Origin: a virus
Reading direction: 5' to 3' (one strand)
Length of the DNA: 64,000 nucleotides
UHGV virus genome: UHGV-0084588
How positions within the stretch are numbered: the first letter of the stretch is position 1; each line of letters opens with the position of its first letter. Of this stretch, positions 4,594 through 15,624 are shown one piece after another. A program made the position numbers and the translations under genes. The notes under the pieces were generated by a model, which was given only the letters and a program-made list of their open reading frames with translations, was not told the origin of the DNA and did not search any database.

Positions 4594-5448
4594 ATGATTG
4601 ACATTTATACCGATTACGCCGCCGTTCTTACCGTCAATCGTGCGGAAGAACGTGCTGCGCCTTTCCTGGACTTAGTAACGCTGTGCATGGATTACGGTTA
4701 CGATGTTGCGTTAAGCGATGTGTATTGGCAACCGTCGTCTGATCCTGCCGACGAAACCGTAAGACTGGAAGGGATTATTGTAAAATGCGCAGTGGCGTTA
4801 GGTAACCGTTTAGGCGTTGCTTTAAACCCACAAGAAGTTTTCCGTAAACCGAAAGAGACCGTACGTATTCTAGACGGCATTACGTCTAAATTCGAAGAGT
4901 TCGAAGACACCGATACGTTATACGGTCTTGTGATGTCTGGAGAAACGCCAGAGTTTATCCTGGAAAGTATCTGCCGTTACGTGTACGGTGACGATAATAT
5001 CCATTTTGAAGATTTGGTCATTCGTGTTTCACCCCGTGTAATGACAGTGATGCGTAATTATCTCTCAGCTATGGTTGTGGATGAGCAACTCGCTGTAGGT
5101 AACGATGTACGTCTGACGCGTATTGCAGAATACTTGCGTCTTTATCCGCAAAATCCCTCTGCGTTCGTATTCTTAAACTTACCTGAAGATCCTGATTTGA
5201 CGGTTGTCCAACAATCGTTAGTCTTTGACGTCGAGGATTACAGCGAAACAGAATTGCTCGAGATGTATACGGTAGGACTTTCGATTATCGATAACGATGA
5301 CTTCGATGACGCGTATGCTGATCTTTCGACGAACTTAGAGAAACTTAATAATGATGGGTTACAACCCATTACTGTTTTACAACCTGCTTTAAAAAGCCTA
5401 CGGGTGATTTATCGGGTTGAGGAGGCAGAGCACGATGACGAGGTTTGA
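4594..5448 (+). CDS. hypothetical protein
   Basis: 285-aa ORF from first ATG (track ORF starts at TTG 4582); follows terminator; co-directional array. Confidence 0.65.
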   Translation: MIDIYTDYAAVLTVNRAEERAAPFLDLVTLCMDYGYDVALSDVYWQPSSDPADETVRLEGIIVKCAVALGNRLGVALNPQEVFRKPKETVRILDGITSKFEEFEDTDTLYGLVMSGETPEFILESICRYVYGDDNIHFEDLVIRVSPRVMTVMRNYLSAMVVDEQLAVGNDVRLTRIAEYLRLYPQNPSAFVFLNLPEDPDLTVVQQSLVFDVEDYSETELLEMYTVGLSIIDNDDFDDAYADLSTNLEKLNNDGLQPITVLQPALKSLRVIYRVEEAEHDDEV

Positions 5449-6736
5449 GTTCTTAGTAGCGGCATGTAAAGCCGAAGCATGGCGTCGCTTGGTTTGGCGC
5501 ATTGCTATCTTTAACATGTCGGTGTTTCCAACTGGGCGTGAAGAACCCGAAGCGTTTGATATTACGTACATTGACGGCTTACCGCATTATTACGCTGTAG
5601 AAGACGGCAAGGGCAGTTGGGAACCGATTACCGACGGTGTAAAGGATCAGGAGCTGTTTATCCCTGAAGAACAGTTCGAACTCCGTCCCGACGACTATCC
5701 CGGTCTAGAAGGTCCTATCCCCACGACAGTAGGGCGATACGTTTTTAACTGGATTGTTATCTGGTATGCTTTTGGTACACGTTTACCTTATCTGGCGATT
5801 TCACAAAACCCGTTGGAATACCGCAAAGAGATGCATCGGCGCTGTTTAGACCATGAATCCGATGAGCCAGAAAACGAAGGTGCGATTCGTCCGAGTATGA
5901 TTGAACGCTTTGTAAGCGGCTTACACGAACTCGCTCCTCTCACGTCAGGTATTGCACCAACCGGTACGTTACGAAGCCTTACGGTGCATCCTGATGCGTA
6001 TAAAATTCGCGATGCGTTGCTGTTGAAGCATAAGGATGAATTAGACGATCCTGCCGTTATCGTTAAGATTGAAAAAGCGTTGGATGAGTTAGACAAAGAG
6101 TGGTTGTCAGGTGACCAATCTATTGAGTTTTATAACTCGCCGAAATCACGGATGCGTCGTCGTAAATTAATGTTGATGTACGGTATTGAGTCGTCTTTTC
6201 AGGAAGGGGGACATTACACGCTCATTCCGAACGCGTTAGTTGAAGTTGATAAGGCGGGGATGGAAAACCTGGTTGCGAAATTCAACTCTATCCGTGAAGG
6301 TTCATTCTCTCGTGGTGCAGAAACAGCGAAAGGGGGTGAGCAGGTACGTATTATCCAGATGATTTTCCAGAACCATCGAATCGTCCCTGGTGACTGTGGA
6401 ACGAAACTAACGTATCCGGTTGTGATTACCGAAGATAACGTAAAACGTTACGTTGGGATGAATGCGATGGTTAATGGTAAACTGACGCCACTGACTGAGG
6501 AATATTTAAAGCAGCAGTTAGGTAAGGTGGTGCGGTTACGCCGACCCATCTTATGTCAGTATGGCCACATCGACACCTGCACAGCGTGTTCGTCAGCGAA
6601 TAAAGGGGAAGAACCTCGTGCAATCGCTGCGGATATATCCTCGGCGTTCTCTAACGTTATGTCCGTGGCAATGGCCGCGATGCACGGTAAAGAGACTGTG
6701 GTACACGAATTTAATCCATCGATCCACATTACGTAA
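5435..6736 (+). CDS. hypothetical protein
   Basis: ATG at 5435 preceded by GAGGAGG SD; overlaps upstream stop by 14 nt; 434 aa. Confidence 0.7.
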   Translation: MTRFEFLVAACKAEAWRRLVWRIAIFNMSVFPTGREEPEAFDITYIDGLPHYYAVEDGKGSWEPITDGVKDQELFIPEEQFELRPDDYPGLEGPIPTTVGRYVFNWIVIWYAFGTRLPYLAISQNPLEYRKEMHRRCLDHESDEPENEGAIRPSMIERFVSGLHELAPLTSGIAPTGTLRSLTVHPDAYKIRDALLLKHKDELDDPAVIVKIEKALDELDKEWLSGDQSIEFYNSPKSRMRRRKLMLMYGIESSFQEGGHYTLIPNALVEVDKAGMENLVAKFNSIREGSFSRGAETAKGGEQVRIIQMIFQNHRIVPGDCGTKLTYPVVITEDNVKRYVGMNAMVNGKLTPLTEEYLKQQLGKVVRLRRPILCQYGHIDTCTACSSANKGEEPRAIAADISSAFSNVMSVAMAAMHGKETVVHEFNPSIHIT

Positions 6737-7267: not shown

Positions 7268-7308
7268 CCCTACTCCCATCGGGAGTAGGGTAACGTTTAT
7301 TTTTTTTT
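7268..7308 (+). terminator. rho-independent terminator (repeat family A)
   Basis: Stem ccctactccc/gggagtaggg then ttatttttttttac; lies between convergent genes. Confidence 0.75.
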
Positions 7309-9088
7309 ACTTTGCGGCTTTGATGTATTCAAAAGGATCGGTAATTGCTTCTCCTTGTCGACGTAGAAAGGCTTCTAAGACGTCGTTTTTATCGGGTAAT
7401 AGGAAGAAATCTGTCGCGATCTCCATTGCGTTAACGCGACCTGCAGTAAGGTTAATACCGACGCGACGCCGTACTTCTTCAGGAACACCGTGAATGCTTA
7501 ATAACTCGATTAACGTCGTCTCACGAGACTGGTTCATCATGTTTGTTGCGGATGGGTATGCCTGGGTTAAGTCAGCATCTGCGGTTTGACCACGGAAAGC
7601 CGTGTAGAAATCATCAACCTCCTTGATGATGTTTCGTAGGCCATTCTCTGCGTTCATACACGCGGTCAATGTAACAATCCAACCGTCTGTCCCAATGACT
7701 TCATTGTCAAAATCGTTACGCATCGCGCTACCCACACAGCCGATAACCAGACCTTGTTCGTAGAGGTAGTACGTGTACGCAATACAGATTCGCTTCGGCA
7801 GTGAAGGGAAGATATCGTACATCGAATAACCTGCCAACACTGAAATAGCAGAAGACAGATCGTTCGTCTTTTTATCAAGCAGAACAATCATCAGGTTATC
7901 GAAGATGTTATAAACGCAGTATTCTAACGGGAAATCTTTCTGTGCCTTTAAGTGCCATTCCAATTTTTCCTCGTAGGGTAAATCCGGTAAGTCTAACTTG
8001 TTTAAACCCAACTCGGTTTCCAGTATCGCGTTAAGTTTGTAAGAAGGACGTTGCCCTTCGTGTACACGCAATGAACGGAATAGACACATCGCATCTACAC
8101 AGTAGAATGACGCCGTACAATAAAGAATGTGCCACTGCTGTGAAGGTGCTTTTGTTAGTGACTTTGATTCCGTTTTCTTCGATGCTTCGTCTTTCTTAAA
8201 GTAGACACGACGGTACTGTTTCGGCACGTCTGGATGACAGAAGACGTCTTCCGGTGGAATGCCCGCTGCTTCTAAAGCTTCTAACATACGTGAAATATCG
8301 AACTCGTGGTTCCATGCGACAAGTAAGTCAGGGAGACGAGGGTGAATTTCCTCAAACATCCGTTGAATACAACAGCCCGAATTGAGACATTCGTAAACGA
8401 AGATTTTGTAACCGTCGATAACGTTTTTGTATTTAACGATAGGATTGTCGTTCTCGTCTTTTCCACGAAAAGCGATTTTAGAAAGCAATTCCTGAGCACG
8501 ATTGACGAGTCGCGCTTCAAAGTTTTCGCGTCCGCAGCGTGTGACGTAGTCTTTCGTAGCAAAGAAATGAATCTCGTCGTCTAAAACAAAACTCATAATC
8601 CAGGGGTCTCGAGATTTGTCTTCTTCTCGAGTTTCCACGTCGTATACACAGATGCGGTTGGGTGAAACAGCATTAGGCCATTTACGCATGTACTTTTCTT
8701 TAATCCAGCTCGTAATGGGCAAATCGGCCCAGTAAACAAACGGTGAAGTACAAACTTGGCGGAGTGGTTTCTTTTTGTCGGGAAAACGAATCCCCAAACC
8801 CATCTGTATGGTTGAGGACATCATTACATCCGTTGTTAAATATTCCTGACACTTACTACGTTCCTCGTATTCCTTCTTTTCCTTGTGGTTACGATGTTGT
8901 GGTAAAGTAATGTAGATGGGACGTTTCAGATTTTCACGCATGACAATTCGTGGGATATATCTGCCATCTTTAGTATGGACGACCTCCTTTATGAGCACGA
9001 AGTCGTTTTCTTTCTGCTGATCGGTTGCGTAAGAAACAAACTTGCACTCCTTGGCAATAACGTCTTCCGGTGCGTAATAGTTATTCAT
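7307..9088 (-). CDS. DEDDy 3-5 exonuclease, family-B DNA polymerase exonuclease-domain-like
   Basis: Ordered motifs VYDVETRE (Exo I, DxE), AWNHEFD (Exo II, NxxFD), YNIFD (Exo III, YxxxD); no YGDTDS polymerase motif seen; start set at internal ATG 9088 to avoid overlap with divergent gene. Confidence 0.55.
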   Translation of the reverse strand: MNNYYAPEDVIAKECKFVSYATDQQKENDFVLIKEVVHTKDGRYIPRIVMRENLKRPIYITLPQHRNHKEKKEYEERSKCQEYLTTDVMMSSTIQMGLGIRFPDKKKPLRQVCTSPFVYWADLPITSWIKEKYMRKWPNAVSPNRICVYDVETREEDKSRDPWIMSFVLDDEIHFFATKDYVTRCGRENFEARLVNRAQELLSKIAFRGKDENDNPIVKYKNVIDGYKIFVYECLNSGCCIQRMFEEIHPRLPDLLVAWNHEFDISRMLEALEAAGIPPEDVFCHPDVPKQYRRVYFKKDEASKKTESKSLTKAPSQQWHILYCTASFYCVDAMCLFRSLRVHEGQRPSYKLNAILETELGLNKLDLPDLPYEEKLEWHLKAQKDFPLEYCVYNIFDNLMIVLLDKKTNDLSSAISVLAGYSMYDIFPSLPKRICIAYTYYLYEQGLVIGCVGSAMRNDFDNEVIGTDGWIVTLTACMNAENGLRNIIKEVDDFYTAFRGQTADADLTQAYPSATNMMNQSRETTLIELLSIHGVPEEVRRRVGINLTAGRVNAMEIATDFFLLPDKNDVLEAFLRRQGEAITDPFEYIKAAK

Positions 9089-9159
9089 GATTTCACTCTC
9101 AAATCTAGCGGCTGCTATACTGATTTGTGGGTAATGTAATTTCTCAAAAGGAAACACAA

Positions 9160-10494
9160 ATGGGATATTGGCAAAATCACATTGCATCAGTTGCGGATGC
9201 AAAGGTTGTAGCCGCAGAATCGATTAAATTCCAAGACAAAAAGAAGCTGGCAGAATTGGCTGATGTTATTGCTAAGTTTCGTGGGGCAGGCGATTTCAGT
9301 CCTGCGGGCTACGAAAGTGCCGGGGTTTCGGATTGGGTATTTAAGAATATCGGCATTACGATTCACTTTAAGAACGGTGGCGAACTGGGTCTTGCTGACG
9401 TTGCTTTTGCAGGTGTAGAACCACCGAAATTGGATGCAAACAGCCCAATCATCGCATCGATGACTCGTGCACTGTACGCAGGTAACAAAGACCTGGATAT
9501 GTACAGTAAGTTCATCAAAGAAAACGAGTTAAACACAACAATCGATGACAGCAGTGCAAAAATCAGTGGTGACCTGAGCAAAGTGGGTTCTCCGCTTTAC
9601 CTTACCCCGGTGCTGCTGGAAAAACTAAACTTGACCGATTTGGAGATCGCTTCGGTGATTCTTCACGAGGTGGGTCACATCTACTATTATTTCCGTACGC
9701 TGATGCGCACTGTAGTGACTGATTTGCTGGCAGATGCTGCGGCTAACCGCATTATGGAAACGGAAGACCAAACTGTCCGCCTGCGTATCGTTAAAGACGT
9801 GGAAAAGATGCTGAACACGAAAGTGAATCAGCCGGAAACGATTTGTACTGAGTACAAAAAAGAAAACGTCTATATGCACTTAGTCACACAGCTGTTATTA
9901 GATCGTCCGTACATTAGCGGCAGTCAAGGTTTTGCTAACAGGACATGGGAACGTGCTGCGGATGATTTTGCTTCCCGCTTTGGCGGCGCTCCTTATCTGG
10001 CCTCGGCACTGTATAAAATGGAAACCAGCCCGTTCTATTTGCTGCGGAACTCAGCGTATATGAACATGGGTGTCCATTTGACACTAGAGCTTTTCCGCGT
10101 GACCGCACTGATAGTTTCTTCTACGATTCCAATTATTCCAGTGATCTCTGTGACATTCGGAATGATCTTAAATGACCCGGATAACACCATTTACGATCCG
10201 CCGCAGCAGCGTTTTGAGGCGATGCGTCGTACACTCGTTGAAGAACTCAATACGATTAAAGACAAGAATACGAAAGCTGCTAACGAACAACGTAAACGTA
10301 TTCTGGATGGTATTGCGGTTATCGACAAGTTGTTAGAAACGGTAAAAGACAAAGATAATCTGTATCAGTTTATCTGGAATACCTTGACGCCGAAGGGTCG
10401 TCGTTCACGTGCTGCTGTGGACTATCAGCGTGCAATCGGGAAGTACATGTCGAATGACCTTCGTATTGCTTCAGCCATGTTTAATGTCGAATAA
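9160..10494 (+). CDS. putative membrane-associated zinc metallopeptidase (HExxH)
   Basis: HEVGH motif (SVILHEVGHIYY) plus hydrophobic segment VTALIVSSTIPIIPVISVTFGMIL; ATG 9160 with AAAGGAAA SD. Confidence 0.5.
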   Translation: MGYWQNHIASVADAKVVAAESIKFQDKKKLAELADVIAKFRGAGDFSPAGYESAGVSDWVFKNIGITIHFKNGGELGLADVAFAGVEPPKLDANSPIIASMTRALYAGNKDLDMYSKFIKENELNTTIDDSSAKISGDLSKVGSPLYLTPVLLEKLNLTDLEIASVILHEVGHIYYYFRTLMRTVVTDLLADAAANRIMETEDQTVRLRIVKDVEKMLNTKVNQPETICTEYKKENVYMHLVTQLLLDRPYISGSQGFANRTWERAADDFASRFGGAPYLASALYKMETSPFYLLRNSAYMNMGVHLTLELFRVTALIVSSTIPIIPVISVTFGMILNDPDNTIYDPPQQRFEAMRRTLVEELNTIKDKNTKAANEQRKRILDGIAVIDKLLETVKDKDNLYQFIWNTLTPKGRRSRAAVDYQRAIGKYMSNDLRIASAMFNVE

Positions 10495-10508: not shown

Positions 10509-10952
10509 ATGACGCATAAAGTTTCTTTAAACTCCTTAGTTCTGGACTTTAAACGTACGAACGAGGGTAAGGGAGTACAGGCACAGCGTGCTCTGACTGG
10601 CCTGGTTGCATTCACACTGGCGTATAACGCCGATATGCCCGATAATGGACCGCTGGGAGCGAATGAGGTAGCACAACTTAAACTTCGTCCGCTGATGAAA
10701 AACGTTGTGTCCGATGTGAATGAACTCTATTGTGTCGACCTGGGCAGCATCGAAGATTTGACCGTTGGGCTATTCTGCAACCGTTACGACAGTGCTTGGG
10801 GCGGTCGTCGCGCTATTGAGAATTTCTCTGTTCGTGAGATTTTCAATGAAGCGCTGGGCGATGATGTATGGGATACCGTTAACCTGTGGCTGGAACGCTT
10901 CATGGAAACGGTGAAATTCTATATGGATGAAACGCGAGGCAAACTGGTATGA
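10509..10952 (+). CDS. hypothetical protein
   Basis: 147-aa ORF, AAAGG SD, tightly packed with neighbours. Confidence 0.6.
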   Translation: MTHKVSLNSLVLDFKRTNEGKGVQAQRALTGLVAFTLAYNADMPDNGPLGANEVAQLKLRPLMKNVVSDVNELYCVDLGSIEDLTVGLFCNRYDSAWGGRRAIENFSVREIFNEALGDDVWDTVNLWLERFMETVKFYMDETRGKLV

Positions 10953-12619
10953 GCATGGAGATGATGGCAAACATTGCGCAACCGCAGTGGAAACTCGATG
11001 AACTTCCTGCGTTATTAGAACAACGTATGGAAGAACGAATCGATTCTGTTAGCCAACTCAATCTCTACATGCAGCGTAATGAAGCAGACCTGATCTACGG
11101 TTCTCGTCTTATCGCACAGATTGAAGCGATTCTGCGTGAAATCCGTAAAGCAGGATTGAACCGTGATGTTGCTGTAGCGACTGAATCTTTGCGTCCTGGC
11201 ACGATCCCGAAGGCTGTACAAAGTGTACTGACGTCGAATTATTCCAAAACACACCAGAAAGAAACGGTGGTGGCGTTAGAGTCTTACGCTAATTTCGGTA
11301 AGATTAGCCTTATCGTGATGGTGATGATGGGGATAATGAAAATCCTCAGTTGGATTATCAGCAACGCTGTTCCTTTTGCGGGCGCTGCGAACATTGACGG
11401 GAACGACTATCGCGAGAAACTGGAAGAGAAGTTGGCCGATGTTCCTTTCACAGAGCGCTTGAAAACTACTGTACTGAAAGAAGTTTATCTGGTACTGTCA
11501 AAAGGTTTGAAAGACAGCGAGTTAAGCAACCTGGAGTTATCTCTTTCACTGGCCGACGATGTTTTCGTGAACATGGAAGCTGAAGAGTTTCTAAATAAAC
11601 TCGCCGCCGCGTTAGGGAAATCGCCGTTTATCGATACGTTTAAGAACCACCTTAAACGACGTCAGAATGAGCTGCAGGTTATTCAGGATCTGCTAGATAC
11701 GCTGCTACGGACGAACATCGGTTACGGTGTATTTGACTTCGGGGTTGCTGAGGAAGTCTATAATGGCTTGCCACCTGATGTGAAACGTGCTGGGGTGAAC
11801 ATTCCGTCAGATATTCAGTTCAACTTAATGAGCACGATTCTTGACAGTTTTGGCGGCGCGCTTCAGGACTTAGACCAGTCGCTGAAAGACATCAAAACTT
11901 ACTACCTGTCAAATAACCCGAAGGTAGGGACGTCGCAAGAGAACCAAGTTGCTGCGGTGCATCTGGTCCGTGCGTTAGGTGAGATCAACGGTCGAATCGA
12001 ATATTCTGCTACGGAGTTCGGTCGACAGAAAGGTAGCCCGGGCCCAATTTTGCGTGTGAAAGACAAGGTTGAGCTTCTCGGTTATACCACACGTGAATTA
12101 GACAACGGTTGGATGATTGCATCAATCGGCGCTAACTCTTTCTTTGGCTCCACAACAAACCTGGAGATGATGCGCCAGGAGTTGAGCTTAAGTAACGGCG
12201 ACTATCGTGAGCTGTTAGCATGTCTGATTACGCTGGCACGTAGTGGTATCTCGGACGGTGTGGCGAATACTGCGCTGGACAAGTATAAGGTGTTGGAAAA
12301 ACGTGTCGATCAGGTTGTAAAAACGCTGAAAGAGATGGCGCGTCAGTCACGTTCTGGTGTTGACACTGAGAAATGGCAGGCGATGGAACAGGCGTTTAAA
12401 GACCAGGTGACGCGAGGGGAAAATTTTAACCTTCACGGTCGTGAATTGACCACGATGATGGTGTTAAACCCTGACCGTAATGTCTGGGATTCTGTTGCGC
12501 ACAGTGCAAACATGATTAACATGTGGTGCAAGGCTGCAGGGTCTATGGCAACGGTGTTGAAACGCGCCAAGTCCAACCCACTTGTAAAAGGCGGGAAGTT
12601 CAATAAATTAGTTGATTAA
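10949..12619 (+). CDS. hypothetical protein with one predicted transmembrane segment
   Basis: 556-aa ORF; ATGA overlap with upstream stop; hydrophobic stretch ISLIVMVMMGIMKILSWIISNAVPFAGAA; terminator follows. Confidence 0.7.
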   Translation: MSMEMMANIAQPQWKLDELPALLEQRMEERIDSVSQLNLYMQRNEADLIYGSRLIAQIEAILREIRKAGLNRDVAVATESLRPGTIPKAVQSVLTSNYSKTHQKETVVALESYANFGKISLIVMVMMGIMKILSWIISNAVPFAGAANIDGNDYREKLEEKLADVPFTERLKTTVLKEVYLVLSKGLKDSELSNLELSLSLADDVFVNMEAEEFLNKLAAALGKSPFIDTFKNHLKRRQNELQVIQDLLDTLLRTNIGYGVFDFGVAEEVYNGLPPDVKRAGVNIPSDIQFNLMSTILDSFGGALQDLDQSLKDIKTYYLSNNPKVGTSQENQVAAVHLVRALGEINGRIEYSATEFGRQKGSPGPILRVKDKVELLGYTTRELDNGWMIASIGANSFFGSTTNLEMMRQELSLSNGDYRELLACLITLARSGISDGVANTALDKYKVLEKRVDQVVKTLKEMARQSRSGVDTEKWQAMEQAFKDQVTRGENFNLHGRELTTMMVLNPDRNVWDSVAHSANMINMWCKAAGSMATVLKRAKSNPLVKGGKFNKLVD

Positions 12620-12669: not shown

Positions 12670-15624
12670 TTAATCGGCGGTAGTATCGTGGCGGTTATAA
12701 ACAATAACGATATCGTCTTTAAGCCCGATGTCGCCGCTGGCCTCAATGTCCAGCTTTTTACCTATAGTTGCTCTTGATGCTTCTGAGACAACGGTAAAGA
12801 GACGCATGTCTTTATCTGGCCCCATAGCATCGAGTTCAACACCGATAATAGACGCATCGAGGGTTTCACTCAACGCATTACCGATTTCTGTTGCAGAGAT
12901 TGTTAGATGGCTACCCAAGTAATCGTTGATAACCTGAGAAGTTTTCTTACGAATCTGCGTTAAGAGCTCGGTGTTATTGCGGTTAGCAGCTGTTAGGTAA
13001 TAGCGTACTGTGAATTGGTTTTCCGCAGGGACAGGTGTTACTACCCCGTCCTCTGTACGAGCGTCGATATACCCCATTGTTGTAATCGGCACAAAGTAAC
13101 CTTCGGTGCGTTCTAACAACATAGGCTTCAAAGTCGGGAGTATTACCGTGACGTAGTTAACGATGTTTTCGATAACTTCATTCAGATACGATTTTGCAGA
13201 AGGTGTCGTCGCGAATTTATATCGCGCATCGAACACTGCCATCTCACTCCGGAATTTGATAGAACGTGACTTCGCAATTTTCGGATTACCAAACTCGTCT
13301 TTAACTAAGTCGCCTTCACGATGTAGGACGATCTGTTCTCCAGCTTCGTCGAGTTTAGGATCGCCTTTACGATGCTCGTACGTAATCTGAAGTGGTGGAG
13401 TGCGGCCTGCATCGTAAGTATAGATTGGTACACCATTCTCATCGCGTTTAACAACATCGATCTCCCACGTTGCCATCACGTCTTGTTCGTAATACTGGTA
13501 GTTAATGCTGTCAGTAACAGCACGCGCTTTACGCCAGTAGTACGTCATTGCCTTACCCAATTCGATTTTGAAAATTTCATGGGTAATACCAATCGCGTCA
13601 CGTGATGGGGCAGTGATTAACGCATCCATTTCCGCACGTTCGTAATTGCCAGGGTAGTAACCCGTGCAGCCGTAGAACAGGTTGAAATCTGTTGTCAGTG
13701 GTACAGGCGTTTCCGTTGGCGTGCTACTACTAATACGCGTATTCGTTAGTACCAATTCGTCATTACGGTCAACGTCCAGGTTGGTTTCCAGTAGGAACTC
13801 CCATACACGTTCGCTACCCTGCTTACCGACTAACGTACCGTTGATGTACGCTAAAGTATTGTCTGCGTTACGCGGACGGAACGATAGCTGCGCAAAAACT
13901 TGGTCGTCAGTCAGTGCTTGATAAGGTGCCTCCGACTTCGTTACGGTACGCAAAACATAACCGGCTTCGGTCTTTTCGATAGTGTAGTCAGCCGTTACCA
14001 CACTGAGTTCCGTACTTACGTTAGTAGCAATAAAGCGTTTGGAGTTTAACGTCGGTTTATCTAATTGATAAATACGAACGTCGATGGCTTTATTGTTGAT
14101 ATCCACAACGTAATGGAATGGCGTAAAGAGATAACGATTAGCGTTGGCCGCGTTAATCAAATCTTCTTTACGCATGGTTTTTGCTAAGACCGTCATTTCA
14201 GCATCAACCGTCAGGCTGGTGTCGGTGAATCGATAAAGCGTATCAGGAAGAATCGTCAAGCGATTACCGTTAACCTTTACCGTCGGCAGATTAACCAATT
14301 CATTCCAGGAGAAATAGAACGGTGCCGTGATTGTCCCGATGGGAGAACTGACATTGGGAATTGTCGAATCGAGCATCGGTGCCGTTAAGAAGTATGTACG
14401 GCTAGTAACATAGTCGTTTGGTTTCGACAACGTTAGGCCGTAATCGGAAACCGTTGCTTCTAATTGCTTCTCCGTAACAGGGAGTTTTCGTGCACCTACA
14501 GCGTTATTGACCACACGTGTACGCAAGTCTTCGAACGTGAGCTGGCTACGACCACCTGATAACATTTTACCCGCTTTTGCAGCCATCTGTTTGATGGAAA
14601 AACTCTTAATCGGGTTAACGTAGTTTTCGTCGTACTCACCGTTTAAATCACGCAATGTGAACGTGTACTCATCAGACGGATAAGCCGAGATATCGACACT
14701 CAAAGGCCCTAAGGTCGTGTAGATATCCATACGAATTTCGCCACTTACCAAATTCTTCGCCATGTAGATCGAAGGGATGGTACACCGTATAACACCGTCA
14801 CCGACCTGAATCAACGCCGTTGGGGTGTTGGGGTCGTAAACGTCACGACTGTGCGTATGTTGAATTTCAACCCACTTGTTATCGTTGGTTGATTTCATCC
14901 ACACCCTTACGTAGAAAAATTTGTTAGTGTAGTGGCGGGTCATGACAAAGGTATTTTTCCCCGCAACGGTGTCACTTTCGTTCTTCACCGCATACTGCAT
15001 GACGGGGATATGGATTGCCAGCAGTTGTGAAGCCGTGGTGTTAGACGATGTCAATTCCCAGTCCAGTGCATTCGTCGAGACAGGAGAAATAGGTGACTGT
15101 GTTTCGGTAATCCATAGAACCTGAAAAGCTGGGTTTTCATTGGTGCCGTAAGGAAGTACCCTGATTTCAATCGGGTATTGGATGGCGAAGGTGTAACCTG
15201 AAACCGTGAAAATTGTGTCTCGTGGGATAACAACCTTACGCACACCCGCTATTTGCAAAGGGTACGCCTTGGAGATTAAACTGTCAACATCGATTAATAA
15301 CAACAACTCGGTGGTCGAAGGTTGGGCGAACACATCAACATAGTCTACATCGGACATATGTCGGAACAGGTCATCGTACGTTTGCGCCATCGATGGAAAA
15401 GTCTTTGGTACCGATTCTTGCAAACCCATGAGCGTCGCATGACCTAACATTGTCCCCATTTCCGCCAAGTAAACAACAGGGTCTGTTGGGTCACGTAACA
15501 GTATTTGGCCTTCGGCGTCTTCTACATCCAGAAGCTGATTCAAGAGCAGTGTTTGCATCGCTGCCGGATGGTGGGCAAACAACAGTATGTTCTTTGCCAA
15601 AGTATCGTAAGTCGTAGAACTCAT
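12670..15624 (-). CDS. large hypothetical protein (984 aa), possibly virion structural
   Basis: Long uninterrupted ORF on minus strand; size typical of phage structural proteins; no catalytic motif recognised. Confidence 0.7.
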   Translation of the reverse strand: MSSTTYDTLAKNILLFAHHPAAMQTLLLNQLLDVEDAEGQILLRDPTDPVVYLAEMGTMLGHATLMGLQESVPKTFPSMAQTYDDLFRHMSDVDYVDVFAQPSTTELLLLIDVDSLISKAYPLQIAGVRKVVIPRDTIFTVSGYTFAIQYPIEIRVLPYGTNENPAFQVLWITETQSPISPVSTNALDWELTSSNTTASQLLAIHIPVMQYAVKNESDTVAGKNTFVMTRHYTNKFFYVRVWMKSTNDNKWVEIQHTHSRDVYDPNTPTALIQVGDGVIRCTIPSIYMAKNLVSGEIRMDIYTTLGPLSVDISAYPSDEYTFTLRDLNGEYDENYVNPIKSFSIKQMAAKAGKMLSGGRSQLTFEDLRTRVVNNAVGARKLPVTEKQLEATVSDYGLTLSKPNDYVTSRTYFLTAPMLDSTIPNVSSPIGTITAPFYFSWNELVNLPTVKVNGNRLTILPDTLYRFTDTSLTVDAEMTVLAKTMRKEDLINAANANRYLFTPFHYVVDINNKAIDVRIYQLDKPTLNSKRFIATNVSTELSVVTADYTIEKTEAGYVLRTVTKSEAPYQALTDDQVFAQLSFRPRNADNTLAYINGTLVGKQGSERVWEFLLETNLDVDRNDELVLTNTRISSSTPTETPVPLTTDFNLFYGCTGYYPGNYERAEMDALITAPSRDAIGITHEIFKIELGKAMTYYWRKARAVTDSINYQYYEQDVMATWEIDVVKRDENGVPIYTYDAGRTPPLQITYEHRKGDPKLDEAGEQIVLHREGDLVKDEFGNPKIAKSRSIKFRSEMAVFDARYKFATTPSAKSYLNEVIENIVNYVTVILPTLKPMLLERTEGYFVPITTMGYIDARTEDGVVTPVPAENQFTVRYYLTAANRNNTELLTQIRKKTSQVINDYLGSHLTISATEIGNALSETLDASIIGVELDAMGPDKDMRLFTVVSEASRATIGKKLDIEASGDIGLKDDIVIVYNRHDTTAD

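What the first reader, a model, noticed from the sequence alone, without database searches (positions are those of the whole stretch)
9160..10494. HExxH metallopeptidase-like protein with a hydrophobic membrane segment
The ORF carries HEVGH in a context typical of zincin active sites and a ~24-residue hydrophobic stretch further downstream, so a membrane-associated metallopeptidase is plausible. The phiKZ-type head maturation protease is, as far as I recall, a serine protease, so this would be a different activity, possibly directed at host envelope proteins or virion processing. It sits next to a 556-aa protein that also has a single TM segment.
Basis: partly seen in the sequence, partly recalled or inferred. 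Interest (0 to 1): 0.45.

Follow-up and report, generated by a model that had tools for sequence, protein, structure and literature searches.

The report
Head-packaged M48-like metallopeptidase of jumbo phage
This gene encodes a conserved jumbo-phage head protein (the counterpart of SPN3US gp45 and phiKZ gp84) that looks like an intact zinc protease of the M48 type with a greasy, probably membrane-inserting hairpin, and papers on these phages still list it as "function unknown".

Summary
ORF 9160-10494 (+), 444 aa, has a good ribosome-binding site, HEVGH at residues 169-173 and a hydrophobic stretch at about 303-337.

- **Identity:** it is the ortholog of Salmonella phage SPN3US gp45 (71% identity) and phiKZ gp84 (26%, E 2e-20). 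In SPN3US this is a head protein whose 20-residue propeptide is removed by the prohead serine protease. The window protein keeps that site (A-A-E20).
- **Catalytic residues:** the family has about 2,000 representatives at 50% identity. In 163 diverse members H169, E170, G172, H173, E264, D268 and R351 never vary.
- **Hydrophobic stretch:** it is conserved as a property and is modelled as a helix-turn-helix hairpin, not a plain single-span helix.

It is best read as a divergent M48-like metallopeptidase stored in the capsid. Catalysis, membrane insertion, ejection and substrates are untested. A role in cell entry or the early-infection vesicle is speculative.

The parts
9148..9154 (+). Ribosome-binding site AAGGAAA, 7 nt upstream of the ATG at 9160
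   Evidence: Read directly from the sequence.
9160..10494 (+). CDS of 444 aa. Ortholog of SPN3US gp45 and phiKZ gp84, a head-packaged M48-like metallopeptidase (PHROG 2767).
   Evidence: ORF list. PHROG 2767, E 7e-151. 71% identity to SPN3US gp45. 26% identity, E 2e-20, to phiKZ gp84.
9160..9219 (+). N-terminal propeptide, residues 1-20 (MGYWQNHIASVADAKVVAAE), ending in the A-x-E site of the prohead protease
   Evidence: SPN3US gp45 is cleaved at ASE-20 (PMC10052503 Table 2). E20 is present in 160 of 163 family members, with S/A/G at position -2 and [A/S]-I-x-[F/Y/H]-Q after the cut. The segment has low pLDDT in both models.
9664..9678 (+). HEVGH (H169, E170, H173): two zinc ligands and the catalytic base on the active-site helix 160-199
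   Evidence: Invariant H, E, G and H in 163 of 163 members. Aligned to HELGH 335-339 of ZMPSTE24. Helix assignment from the model.
9949..9963 (+). E264-R-A-A-D268: candidate third zinc ligand in the E-x-x-[A/S]-D motif on helix 256-288
   Evidence: E264 and D268 are invariant. Aligned to E415-F-Q-A-D419 of ZMPSTE24.
10066..10170 (+). Hydrophobic helix-turn-helix hairpin, residues 303-337. Candidate membrane-inserting or protein-buried element.
   Evidence: Hydropathy. Helices 303-320 and 325-337 are modelled at pLDDT of about 84-95. The central Pro/Gly turn is present in 94% of members.
10192..10212 (+). Y345-D346-P-P-Q-Q-R351: conserved block just after the hairpin. R351 is invariant; Y345 and D346 are nearly so. 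Its role is unknown; it could be an active-site or transition-state residue.
   Evidence: Conservation counts. The role is inference only.
10201..10488 (+). C-terminal all-helical domain, residues 348-443
10509..10952 (+). Context: downstream 147-aa ORF in the same conserved operon, at the position of SPN3US gp46 and phiKZ gp85 (an inner vertex-complex protein in phiKZ)
   Evidence: PHROG 8529. Synteny in Stratton, phiKZ, SPN3US, RSL2, Yaphecito and PCH45. Role of phiKZ gp85 from PMC11297242. The equivalence is by position, not by demonstrated sequence similarity (one search found no PDB match).
10949..12619 (+). Context: 556-aa ortholog of SPN3US gp47 (essential head protein). It keeps the ATE-79 and ALE-111 sites and has a TM-like stretch at residues 119-137.
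   Evidence: 41% identity to SPN3US gp47. Motifs and hydropathy. PMC5694885.

Best explanation
The ORF encodes a divergent M48-like (gluzincin) zinc metallopeptidase that phiKZ-like jumbo phages package inside the head.

**Anatomy**
- A 20-residue N-terminal propeptide ends in A-A-E20.
- An alpha/beta region has three short strands just before the active-site helix.
- Helix 160-199 carries H169-E170-x-x-H173.
- Helix 256-288 carries the third zinc ligand candidate E264 in an E-x-x-A-D motif.
- A hydrophobic helix-turn-helix hairpin spans 303-337.
- A conserved Y-D-x-P-x-x-R block follows the hairpin.
- A helical C-terminal domain spans 348-443.

**Proposed course**
1. The protein is made with the other head proteins and enters the prohead.
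2. The prohead serine protease cuts it after E20. This is shown for the SPN3US ortholog and inferred here.
3. The protein is then stored in the mature head at tens of copies.
4. Inferred: it is a competent protease with the usual zincin mechanism, in which Zn is held by two His and one Glu and E170 activates water.
5. More weakly inferred: the hairpin lets it sit on or in a membrane, with both flanking domains on the same side. This could happen after ejection into the next host (at the inner membrane or the early-infection vesicle) or during head assembly at the membrane. There it would cut membrane-proximal or unfolded polypeptides, as cellular M48 enzymes do.

The substrate is unknown.
For: - **Identity and virion location**
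  - 71% identity to SPN3US gp45.
  - SPN3US gp45 was found in purified virions and tailless heads, cleaved at ASE-20, at mid-to-low abundance (PMC10052503 Table 2; PMC5694885 Table 1).
  - phiKZ gp84 is annotated as a structural head protein.
- **Catalytic residues under selection**
  - H169, E170, G172, H173, E264, D268 and R351 are invariant in 163 and 150 members that are only 21-37% identical to the query.
- **Sequence link to M48**
  - The family profile hits ZMPSTE24 at E 4.9e-5, with HExxH and E415xxAD aligned.
  - The E336A mutant chain scores lower, at E 0.0041.
  - 39 of 110 members hit Pfam PF01435 at E <= 0.01 (best 2e-5). No other family is hit by more than 2 members.
- **Fold**
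  - AF2 model: pLDDT 89.9, pTM 0.90.
- **Propeptide site**
  - [S/A/G]-x-E|[A/S]-I-x-[F/Y/H]-Q is conserved family-wide.
  - It is kept at the junction of natural fusion proteins.
- **Hairpin**
  - Hydrophobicity is conserved while sequence is not, there is a central Pro/Gly turn, and the median uncharged run is 28 residues.
- **Conserved operon**
  - The gene sits with the gp85- and gp86/gp47-position head genes across distant phages.
Against: - The window protein scores 17.5 bits on Pfam M48, below the gathering score of 20.3. NCBIfam gives nothing.
- No enzymatic activity, zinc content or substrate has been reported for any member.
- All cleavage sites mapped so far in SPN3US and phiKZ heads fit the serine protease motif (PMC10052503, PMC10449902). 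There is therefore no trace of a second protease acting inside the virion.
- Tens of copies per virion is a lot for an enzyme and may point to a structural role.
- I found no report testing ejection of gp45 or gp84 into the host. The studies of injected phiKZ and Goslar proteins that I read do not mention them.
- I could not inspect model coordinates. I cannot say whether the hairpin is exposed or packed against the protein.
Confidence: 0.7

Rival explanations
1. It is a protease that works inside the prohead or capsid and is not ejected. It would be a second maturation or remodelling enzyme acting on head or inner-body proteins. The hydrophobic hairpin would then be a protein-protein interface, for example with the inner vertex complex or with the TM-like helix of gp47, rather than a membrane anchor.
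For: - It is a head protein in SPN3US and phiKZ.
- Its operon partners in phiKZ, gp85 and gp86, sit in the inner vertex-binding complex (PMC11297242).
- Its abundance is of the same order as gp47.
- Some relatives are fused to a module resembling the gp47 propeptide.
Against: - Every cleavage mapped in SPN3US heads follows the A-x-E motif of gp245 (PMC10052503). The phiKZ cleavages follow S/A/G-x-E (PMC10449902).
- The protein was not among those identified in the phiKZ capsid and vertex maps. It is not mentioned in the Goslar vertex-complex description.
- The hairpin sequence varies freely while staying hydrophobic. That pattern is more typical of lipid contact than of a specific protein interface.
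Confidence: 0.17
2. It is a purely structural minor head protein that has kept a zincin-like fold but no longer acts as an enzyme (a pseudo-peptidase).
For: - It is present at tens of copies per virion.
- No activity has been reported.
- Annotators mostly call it a virion structural protein.
Against: All three metal ligands, the catalytic Glu and the Asp of the E-x-x-x-D motif are invariant in 163 members whose overall identity falls to about 21%. Pseudo-enzymes normally lose such residues.
Confidence: 0.08
3. It is a cell-wall peptidase used during entry. It would cut peptidoglycan peptide stems while anchored by hydrophobic segments, as reported for the phage T5 tape-measure protein Pb2.
For: Only the general analogy of a virion protein that combines an HExxH motif with hydrophobic segments. 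The T5 Pb2 comparison rests on my own knowledge and was not checked here.
Against: - The fold and profile matches are to M48 proteases of polypeptides, not to peptidoglycan peptidase families such as M15, M23 or M74.
- The protein is in the head, not the tail.
Confidence: 0.04
4. The HExxH is a chance motif in an unrelated helical protein.
For: Sequence scores to M48 for the single protein are weak.
Against: - The chance expectation is about 0.0045 per protein.
- The motif and the downstream Glu are invariant.
- The profile hit to ZMPSTE24 is significant and has both motifs in register.
Confidence: 0.01

Closest known systems
SPN3US gp45 / phiKZ gp84 / PHROG 2767 (jumbo-phage head protein, function listed as unknown)
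   Same: - Orthologous: 71% identity to SPN3US gp45 and 26% to phiKZ gp84.
- Similar length (444 aa here; 450 aa in SPN3US, 413 aa in phiKZ).
- Same gene neighbourhood: a divergent DNA-polymerase fragment upstream, the gp46/gp85-position and gp47/gp86-position genes downstream, and a convergent gene of about 970 aa.
- Same x-x-E20 propeptide site.
   Different: Nothing of substance. The window phage is a distinct species, with about 75% nucleotide identity to its nearest relatives and no megablast hit for this gene.
Peptidase family M48 (Ste24/ZMPSTE24, HtpX, Oma1, BepA; Pfam PF01435)
   Same: - HExxH on the active-site helix.
- A third ligand Glu in an R-x-x-E-x-x-A-D type motif on a following helix.
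- Top structural matches.
- Association of the catalytic domain with hydrophobic helices.
   Different: - Scores below the Pfam gathering threshold, with about 16-19% identity in the structural alignments.
- Ste24 has a seven-helix membrane barrel and BepA has a TPR domain. This protein has a single short hydrophobic hairpin placed after the third ligand, plus a private C-terminal helical domain.
- It is packaged in a virus capsid and is N-terminally processed by a phage serine protease.
Minigluzincins (proabylysin/projannalysin), minimal soluble models of the M48/M56 catalytic domains
   Different: As I recall, the minigluzincin zymogen is blocked by its own C-terminal tail. Here the removed piece is a 20-residue N-terminal peptide that is modelled with low confidence. 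It more likely serves capsid targeting, as the short T4 capsid-targeting sequences do (a comparison made in PMC5694885).
HExxH (zincin-like) C1 subdomain in the C-terminal domain of the ejected phage N4 virion RNA polymerase
   Same: [quoted passage not shown]
   Different: No detectable sequence relationship was sought or found. In N4 it is a domain of a 3,500-residue polymerase, not a separate protein, and no hydrophobic hairpin is described.

Membership tests
Peptidase M48 (Pfam PF01435; MEROPS clan MA gluzincins) | HExxH with two His zinc ligands and a catalytic Glu on an alpha-helix | tested here: met
   HEVGH at 169-173 lies in helix 160-199. It is invariant in 163 of 163 members and aligns to HELGH of ZMPSTE24.
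Peptidase M48 (Pfam PF01435; MEROPS clan MA gluzincins) | Third zinc ligand is a Glu in a downstream E-x-x-A-D type motif on a separate helix | tested here: met
   E264-R-A-A-D268 lies in helix 256-288. E264 and D268 are invariant. The motif aligns to E415-F-Q-A-D419 of ZMPSTE24. That E415 is the ZMPSTE24 zinc ligand rests on established knowledge of that structure, not on a test here.
Peptidase M48 (Pfam PF01435; MEROPS clan MA gluzincins) | Score at or above the curated Pfam gathering threshold | tested here: not met
   17.5 bits against a cut-off of 20.3, E 0.0038. 39 of 110 relatives reach E <= 0.01, best 2e-5. NCBIfam HtpX only reaches E 0.06.
Peptidase M48 (Pfam PF01435; MEROPS clan MA gluzincins) | Three-dimensional similarity of the catalytic domain to solved M48 structures | tested here: met
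Peptidase M48 (Pfam PF01435; MEROPS clan MA gluzincins) | Zinc-dependent peptidase activity | not testable with these tools
   No biochemical data were found for any family member.
SPN3US gp45 / phiKZ gp84 head-protein family (PHROG 2767) | Full-length sequence similarity to the family profile | tested here: met
   PHROG 2767 at E 7.4e-151, covering residues 1-442 of the protein and 1-439 of 442 profile positions. BLASTP to gp45 and gp84.
SPN3US gp45 / phiKZ gp84 head-protein family (PHROG 2767) | Conserved gene neighbourhood: divergent DNA-polymerase fragment, then this gene, a gene of about 150 aa, a gp47/gp86-position gene, and a convergent gene of about 970 aa | tested here: met
   Window ORFs compared with Stratton, phiKZ, SPN3US, RSL2, Yaphecito and PCH45.
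SPN3US gp45 / phiKZ gp84 head-protein family (PHROG 2767) | N-terminal propeptide ending in [S/A/G]-x-E, removed by the prohead protease, with presence in the head | tested here: inconclusive
   The motif A-A-E20 is present and conserved. Cleavage and head location are shown only for the SPN3US ortholog (PMC10052503), not for this phage.
Integral (bitopic) membrane protein | One hydrophobic helix of about 20 residues that spans the bilayer, with the flanking domains on opposite sides | tested here: inconclusive
   Hydropathy passes the usual threshold (1.96). However, the stretch is modelled as two short helices around a conserved Pro/Gly turn. Conserved residues on both sides (E264 upstream, Y345, D346 and R351 downstream) suggest one globular unit on one side. 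No dedicated topology predictor or model coordinates were available.

The most novel reading that the evidence does not exclude
The gp45/gp84 family may be a virion-delivered, membrane-inserting protease that acts at the entry site of nucleus-forming jumbo phages. It could cut host inner-membrane proteins. It could also cut the phage's own hydrophobic head proteins, such as gp47, as they emerge unfolded from the tail. Either way it would help to build, open or later dismantle the membrane-bound early phage infection (EPI) vesicle. The formation mechanism and protein components of that vesicle are explicitly listed as unknown (PMC12908238).
Probability: 0.15. Interest if true: 0.8.

Novelty: new variant of a known kind. 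Interest (0 to 1): 0.5.

Why it matters
Nucleus-forming jumbo phages carry dozens of head proteins of unknown function. They begin infection inside a membrane vesicle whose origin is unexplained.

This is a second, mechanistically different protease that is universally conserved in these heads. Its catalytic residues are intact, and it has a hydrophobic hairpin. It is therefore a concrete, mutable candidate for an enzyme acting at the membrane during entry or assembly.

In the phiKZ transposon screen this gene (PHIKZ084) had no filtered insertions, although that does not prove it is essential. The gene has tractable orthologs in two genetic systems, SPN3US amber mutants and phiKZ Cas13 selection. 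A single E170A substitution would test the idea.

Practically, the many database entries reading "virion structural protein" could carry a more informative annotation.

Tried and rejected
- **Single-sequence searches.** These were uninformative: PDB phmmer and megablast of the gene against phages.
- **Narrow profile A1 against the PDB.** It gave only E of about 1 to ZMPSTE24. The wider profile A2 was needed.
- **Second homologous-protein search.** The word index returned only close relatives.
- **Neighbours against the PDB.** Searches with the 556-aa and 147-aa neighbours found no phiKZ or Goslar capsid chain. Their equivalence to phiKZ gp86 and gp85 therefore rests on position and on the literature, not on sequence.
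- **NCBIfam.** It gave no usable hit.
- **Literature.**
  - Searches for a described function of gp45/gp84, or for an M48 protease in jumbo-phage virions, found nothing.
  - The PCH45 Tn-seq tables are not held.
- **phiKZ TnSeq.** It shows 0 filtered insertions in PHIKZ084. The same is true of orf85-86, which the authors could still delete, so I do not count this as proof of essentiality.
- **Considered and rejected.**
  - A chance motif.
  - A peptidoglycan peptidase.
  - The GTG start at 9127, which has no ortholog support and overlaps the divergent intergenic region.
Full report
**1. The observation**

The six-frame ORF list shows an ORF from 9127 (GTG) to 10494 on the + strand. The in-frame ATG at 9160 is preceded by AAGGAAA seven bases upstream. 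It yields MGYWQNH..., which aligns from the first residue with every ortholog.

HEVGH occupies residues 169-173 (nt 9664-9678). Given only 6 His and 25 Glu in the protein, the chance expectation of an HExxH is about 0.0045.

The most hydrophobic 19-residue window is 314-332, with a Kyte-Doolittle mean of 1.96, inside a longer uncharged stretch.

It does carry a TM-like stretch at residues 119-137 (mean 2.31).

**2. Where the window comes from, and what the protein is**

The window is a phiKZ-like jumbo phage of the SPN3US / Erwinia EaH2 group. Its nearest records are about 75% identical in DNA. This gene has no megablast match.

At protein level, tblastn finds the gene in 220 phage records, apparently all jumbo phages, of Erwinia, Pseudomonas, Salmonella, Serratia, Ralstonia, Vibrio, Klebsiella and Aeromonas. 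It is usually annotated "virion structural protein". Occasionally it is annotated "M48 family lipoprotein protease", "peptidase" or "beta-barrel assembly-enhancing protease". It belongs to PHROG 2767, function unknown (E 7e-151).

It is 71% identical over its full length to SPN3US gp45. It is 26% identical (E 2e-20) to phiKZ gp84, a "structural head protein".

The gene order is kept in Erwinia phage Stratton, phiKZ/KTN4, SPN3US, Ralstonia RSL2, Serratia Yaphecito and PCH45:
- a DNA-polymerase fragment on the minus strand;
- this gene;
- a gene of about 150 aa;
- the gp47/gp86-position gene;
- a convergent gene of about 970 aa.

Published proteomics show the following for SPN3US gp45:
- It is present in purified virions and in tailless heads.
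- It has a 20-residue N-terminal propeptide removed at ASE-20 by the prohead protease gp245.
- It is of mid-to-low abundance, with spectral count per mass 2.9. For comparison, the 264-copy tail tube scores 6.4 and gp47 scores 1.75-2.2.
- It is listed as "Head, unknown function" (PMC5694885 Table 1; PMC10052503 Table 2).

The window protein has A-A-E at residue 20.

The 556-aa neighbour is the ortholog of SPN3US gp47 (41% identity). That is an essential head protein with a predicted TM helix which its authors proposed to be ejected (PMC5694885). The window copy keeps ATE-79 and ALE-111.

**3. Is it a metallopeptidase?**

*Conservation.* An exhaustive profile search found 2,016 cluster representatives (50% identity clusters) at E <= 0.001, and 1,510 at E <= 1e-10. 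Most listed hits are 400-460 aa and match along the full length. I aligned 163 of them, and separately 150 of them, which fall to about 21% identity with the query. Seven columns were invariant in the 150-member alignment: H169, E170, G172, H173, E264, D268 and R351. In the 163-member alignment, where I checked selected columns, the same seven are invariant. E20, Y345 and D346 are nearly so. Complete retention of two His, the catalytic Glu and a downstream Glu at this divergence argues strongly for a working metal site.

*Sequence relationship.*
- The single protein touches Pfam Peptidase_M48 only at E 0.0038, 17.5 bits against a cut-off of 20.3. The match does cover both motifs (residues 143-287).
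- Scanned one by one, 39 of 110 diverse members hit PF01435 at E <= 0.01 (best 2e-5). No other family is hit by more than two members.
- The 150-sequence profile, searched against all PDB sequences, finds human ZMPSTE24 at E 4.9e-5 and yeast-type Ste24p at 0.0094.
- In that hit, HELGH 335-339 aligns to the family HExGH, and R-R-F-E415-F-Q-A-D419 aligns to R-x-W-E264-x-x-A-D268.
- The deposited E336A mutant chain scores markedly lower, at E 0.0041.
- From established knowledge of that structure, E415 is the third zinc ligand of ZMPSTE24.

*Structure.*
- With the 19-sequence alignment, AlphaFold2 gave pLDDT 72.5.
- With the 150-sequence alignment it gave pLDDT 89.9 and pTM 0.90.
- The model has three short strands (126-129, 134-137, 143-148) immediately before a long helix, 160-199, that carries HEVGH.
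- A second long helix, 256-288, carries E264. This is the standard gluzincin arrangement.
- The remaining hits are short generic helical bundles that match the C-terminal domain.

*Caveats.*
- The Z margin is small.
- NCBIfam gives nothing.

I therefore call it M48-like, a divergent relative of the family, and not a member by curated thresholds.

**4. The hydrophobic segment**

Sequence here is poorly conserved, but hydrophobicity is conserved. 96% of members have a 19-residue mean of at least 1.6 at this position, and in 98% it is the most hydrophobic part of the protein.

The longest uncharged run has a median of 28 residues. 94% of members have Pro or Gly in its central 40%. Pro plus Gly make up 13.9% of the run against 8.1% overall.

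The confident model breaks it into helices 303-320 and 325-337. Invariant or near-invariant residues lie on both sides: E264 and D268 before it, and Y345, D346 and R351 just after it.

Together this fits a helical hairpin whose two ends stay on the same side. That could be a monotopic or re-entrant membrane anchor, or a protein-buried element. It fits less well with a single bilayer-spanning helix that would separate the catalytic domain from the C-terminal domain. I could not inspect coordinates or run a topology predictor, so this remains inference.

**5. The propeptide**

The signature [S/A/G]-x-E | [A/S]-I-x-[F/Y/H]-Q is conserved across the family. It matches the specificity of the phiKZ-type prohead serine protease: S/A/G-x-E (PMC10449902), and A-x-E in SPN3US (PMC10052503).

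Eight of the 150 best representatives are long fusion proteins of 804-1452 aa. Seven carry the peptidase module at the C-terminal end, and each of those junctions has a Glu followed by the conserved [S/A/G]-[I/V]-x-[F/H] start of the peptidase module (the upstream S/A/G fits in only some); the eighth has the module and the same signature at its own N-terminus.

In two fusions, the upstream part resembles the propeptide region of the gp47 family:
- P0077 residues 392-498 against window gp47-like residues 52-160: 32% identity, E 1e-8.
- Matches to PHROG 8131 at E 1.5e-6 (P0077) and 1e-4 (P0109).

This suggests that release of the peptidase module by the prohead protease is a general feature. It also links the family functionally to gp47.

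The 20 residues are modelled with low confidence. A capsid-targeting role, like the short T4 targeting sequences that the SPN3US authors compare it with, seems more likely than an active-site-blocking prosegment. I cannot exclude the latter.

**6. How it most likely works**

*Shown, here or in the literature for orthologs:*
- Head location.
- Cleavage after E20.
- Invariant HExxH...E...D.
- M48-like fold.
- Conserved hydrophobic hairpin.
- Conserved operon with head genes that in phiKZ encode inner vertex-complex proteins.

*Inferred:* the protein binds zinc and hydrolyses peptide bonds by the usual zincin mechanism.

*More weakly inferred:* the hairpin mediates membrane association. Cellular M48 enzymes (HtpX, Oma1, Ste24, BepA) act on membrane-associated, misassembled or translocating polypeptides; this is established knowledge. 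A capsid offers no membrane. The membrane encounter would therefore be one of two things:
- the next host's inner membrane or the EPI vesicle after ejection;
- the producing cell's membrane during prohead assembly.

No study I could find tests injection of gp45 or gp84. The phiKZ and Goslar injection studies I read do not mention them.

In the phiKZ transposon screen, PHIKZ084 has 0 filtered insertions in 1,242 bp. The neighbours 085-087 also have 0, and the authors could delete orf85-86. Essentiality of 084 is therefore suggested but not shown.

**7. Rivals**

- **An in-capsid protease that is never ejected.** It fits the location and the operon. However, all cleavages mapped in SPN3US and phiKZ heads fit the serine-protease motif.
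- **A structural pseudo-peptidase.** It fits the copy number but not the invariant catalytic residues.
- **A peptidoglycan peptidase, or a chance motif.** The evidence in section 3 contradicts both.

**8. Novelty and verdict**

The protein family is catalogued. A few GenBank annotators have already attached M48-type labels to it. The bare observation is therefore not new to databases.

I found no paper that discusses it as a protease. The primary SPN3US literature lists it as unknown as late as 2023.

Relative to known M48 enzymes it is a distinct variant. It falls below family thresholds. Its hydrophobic hairpin lies after the third ligand. It has a private C-terminal domain. It is matured by a viral serine protease and stored inside a capsid. 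I rate it "new variant of a known kind", with interest 0.5.

The most novel reading not excluded is a role at the membrane during entry or EPI-vesicle formation. I put its probability at about 0.15. It would matter considerably, because the components of that vesicle are an open question (PMC12908238).

Noticed in passing
window 10949-12619 (+): The 556-aa ORF is the ortholog of the SPN3US essential head protein gp47 (41% identity). It keeps both published prohead-protease sites (ATE-79, ALE-111). It has a TM-like stretch at residues 119-137, directly after the maturation site.
   Followed up: partly
proteins P0077, P0109, P0063, P0067, P0107, P0120, P0133, P0088 (metagenomic relatives): These are natural fusion proteins of 804-1452 aa in which the peptidase module follows (or in one case precedes) other material. 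The junctions have a Glu followed by the conserved start of the peptidase module. In P0077 and P0109 the upstream part resembles the gp47 propeptide region (E 1e-8 pairwise; PHROG 8131 at E 1.5e-6 and 1e-4). Several upstream parts have their own TM-like stretches.
   Followed up: partly
window 7307-9202 (-): The ORF finder starts the DNA-polymerase fragment (PHROG 3011) at TTG 9202. The family match begins at residue 41 and there is a Met at residue 39. The real start is therefore probably near 9088. That leaves a divergent intergenic region of about 70 bp (9089-9159) shared with the peptidase gene, as between SPN3US gp44 and gp45.
   Followed up: partly
window 5417-6736 (+): This ORF matches the PHROG 'RNA polymerase beta subunit' family (E 5e-169) and corresponds by position to SPN3US gp42, a subunit of the virion-packaged RNA polymerase. 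Another ejected head component is thus encoded just upstream of this head-gene cluster.
   Followed up: no
window 12670-15624 (-): This convergent 984-aa ORF (PHROG 3248, unknown function) corresponds by position to phiKZ gp87 and SPN3US gp48. It is annotated variously as 'virion structural protein' and, in Serratia phage Yaphecito, 'putative baseplate wedge protein'.
   Followed up: no
phiKZ record, PHIKZ084-087 (supplement files 2 and 3 of PMC12676376): In the phiKZ transposon screen all four genes 084-087 have zero filtered insertions, although low-read insertions exist in the unfiltered table. The authors nevertheless obtained deletions of orf85-86. The insertion-free block therefore needs another explanation, such as polar or antisense effects on the convergent orf87.
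   Followed up: partly
proteins P0029-P0035 (Salmonella phages SPFM1, 5, 7-10, 12, 15, 20): The gp45 gene models of several SPFM phage records align to the query over only 5-11% of its length at high identity, and one (P0030) matches the family profile in 20 short stretches. They look frameshifted or garbled in those records. Other SPFM records, such as SPFM17 and SPFM2, carry an intact copy.
   Followed up: no
PMC13434306 (phage N4): The C-terminal domain of the ejected N4 virion RNA polymerase is reported to contain a conserved HExxH (zincin-like) subdomain. HExxH modules on capsid-stored, ejected proteins may be a recurring theme in phages that inject their own RNA polymerase.
   Followed up: no
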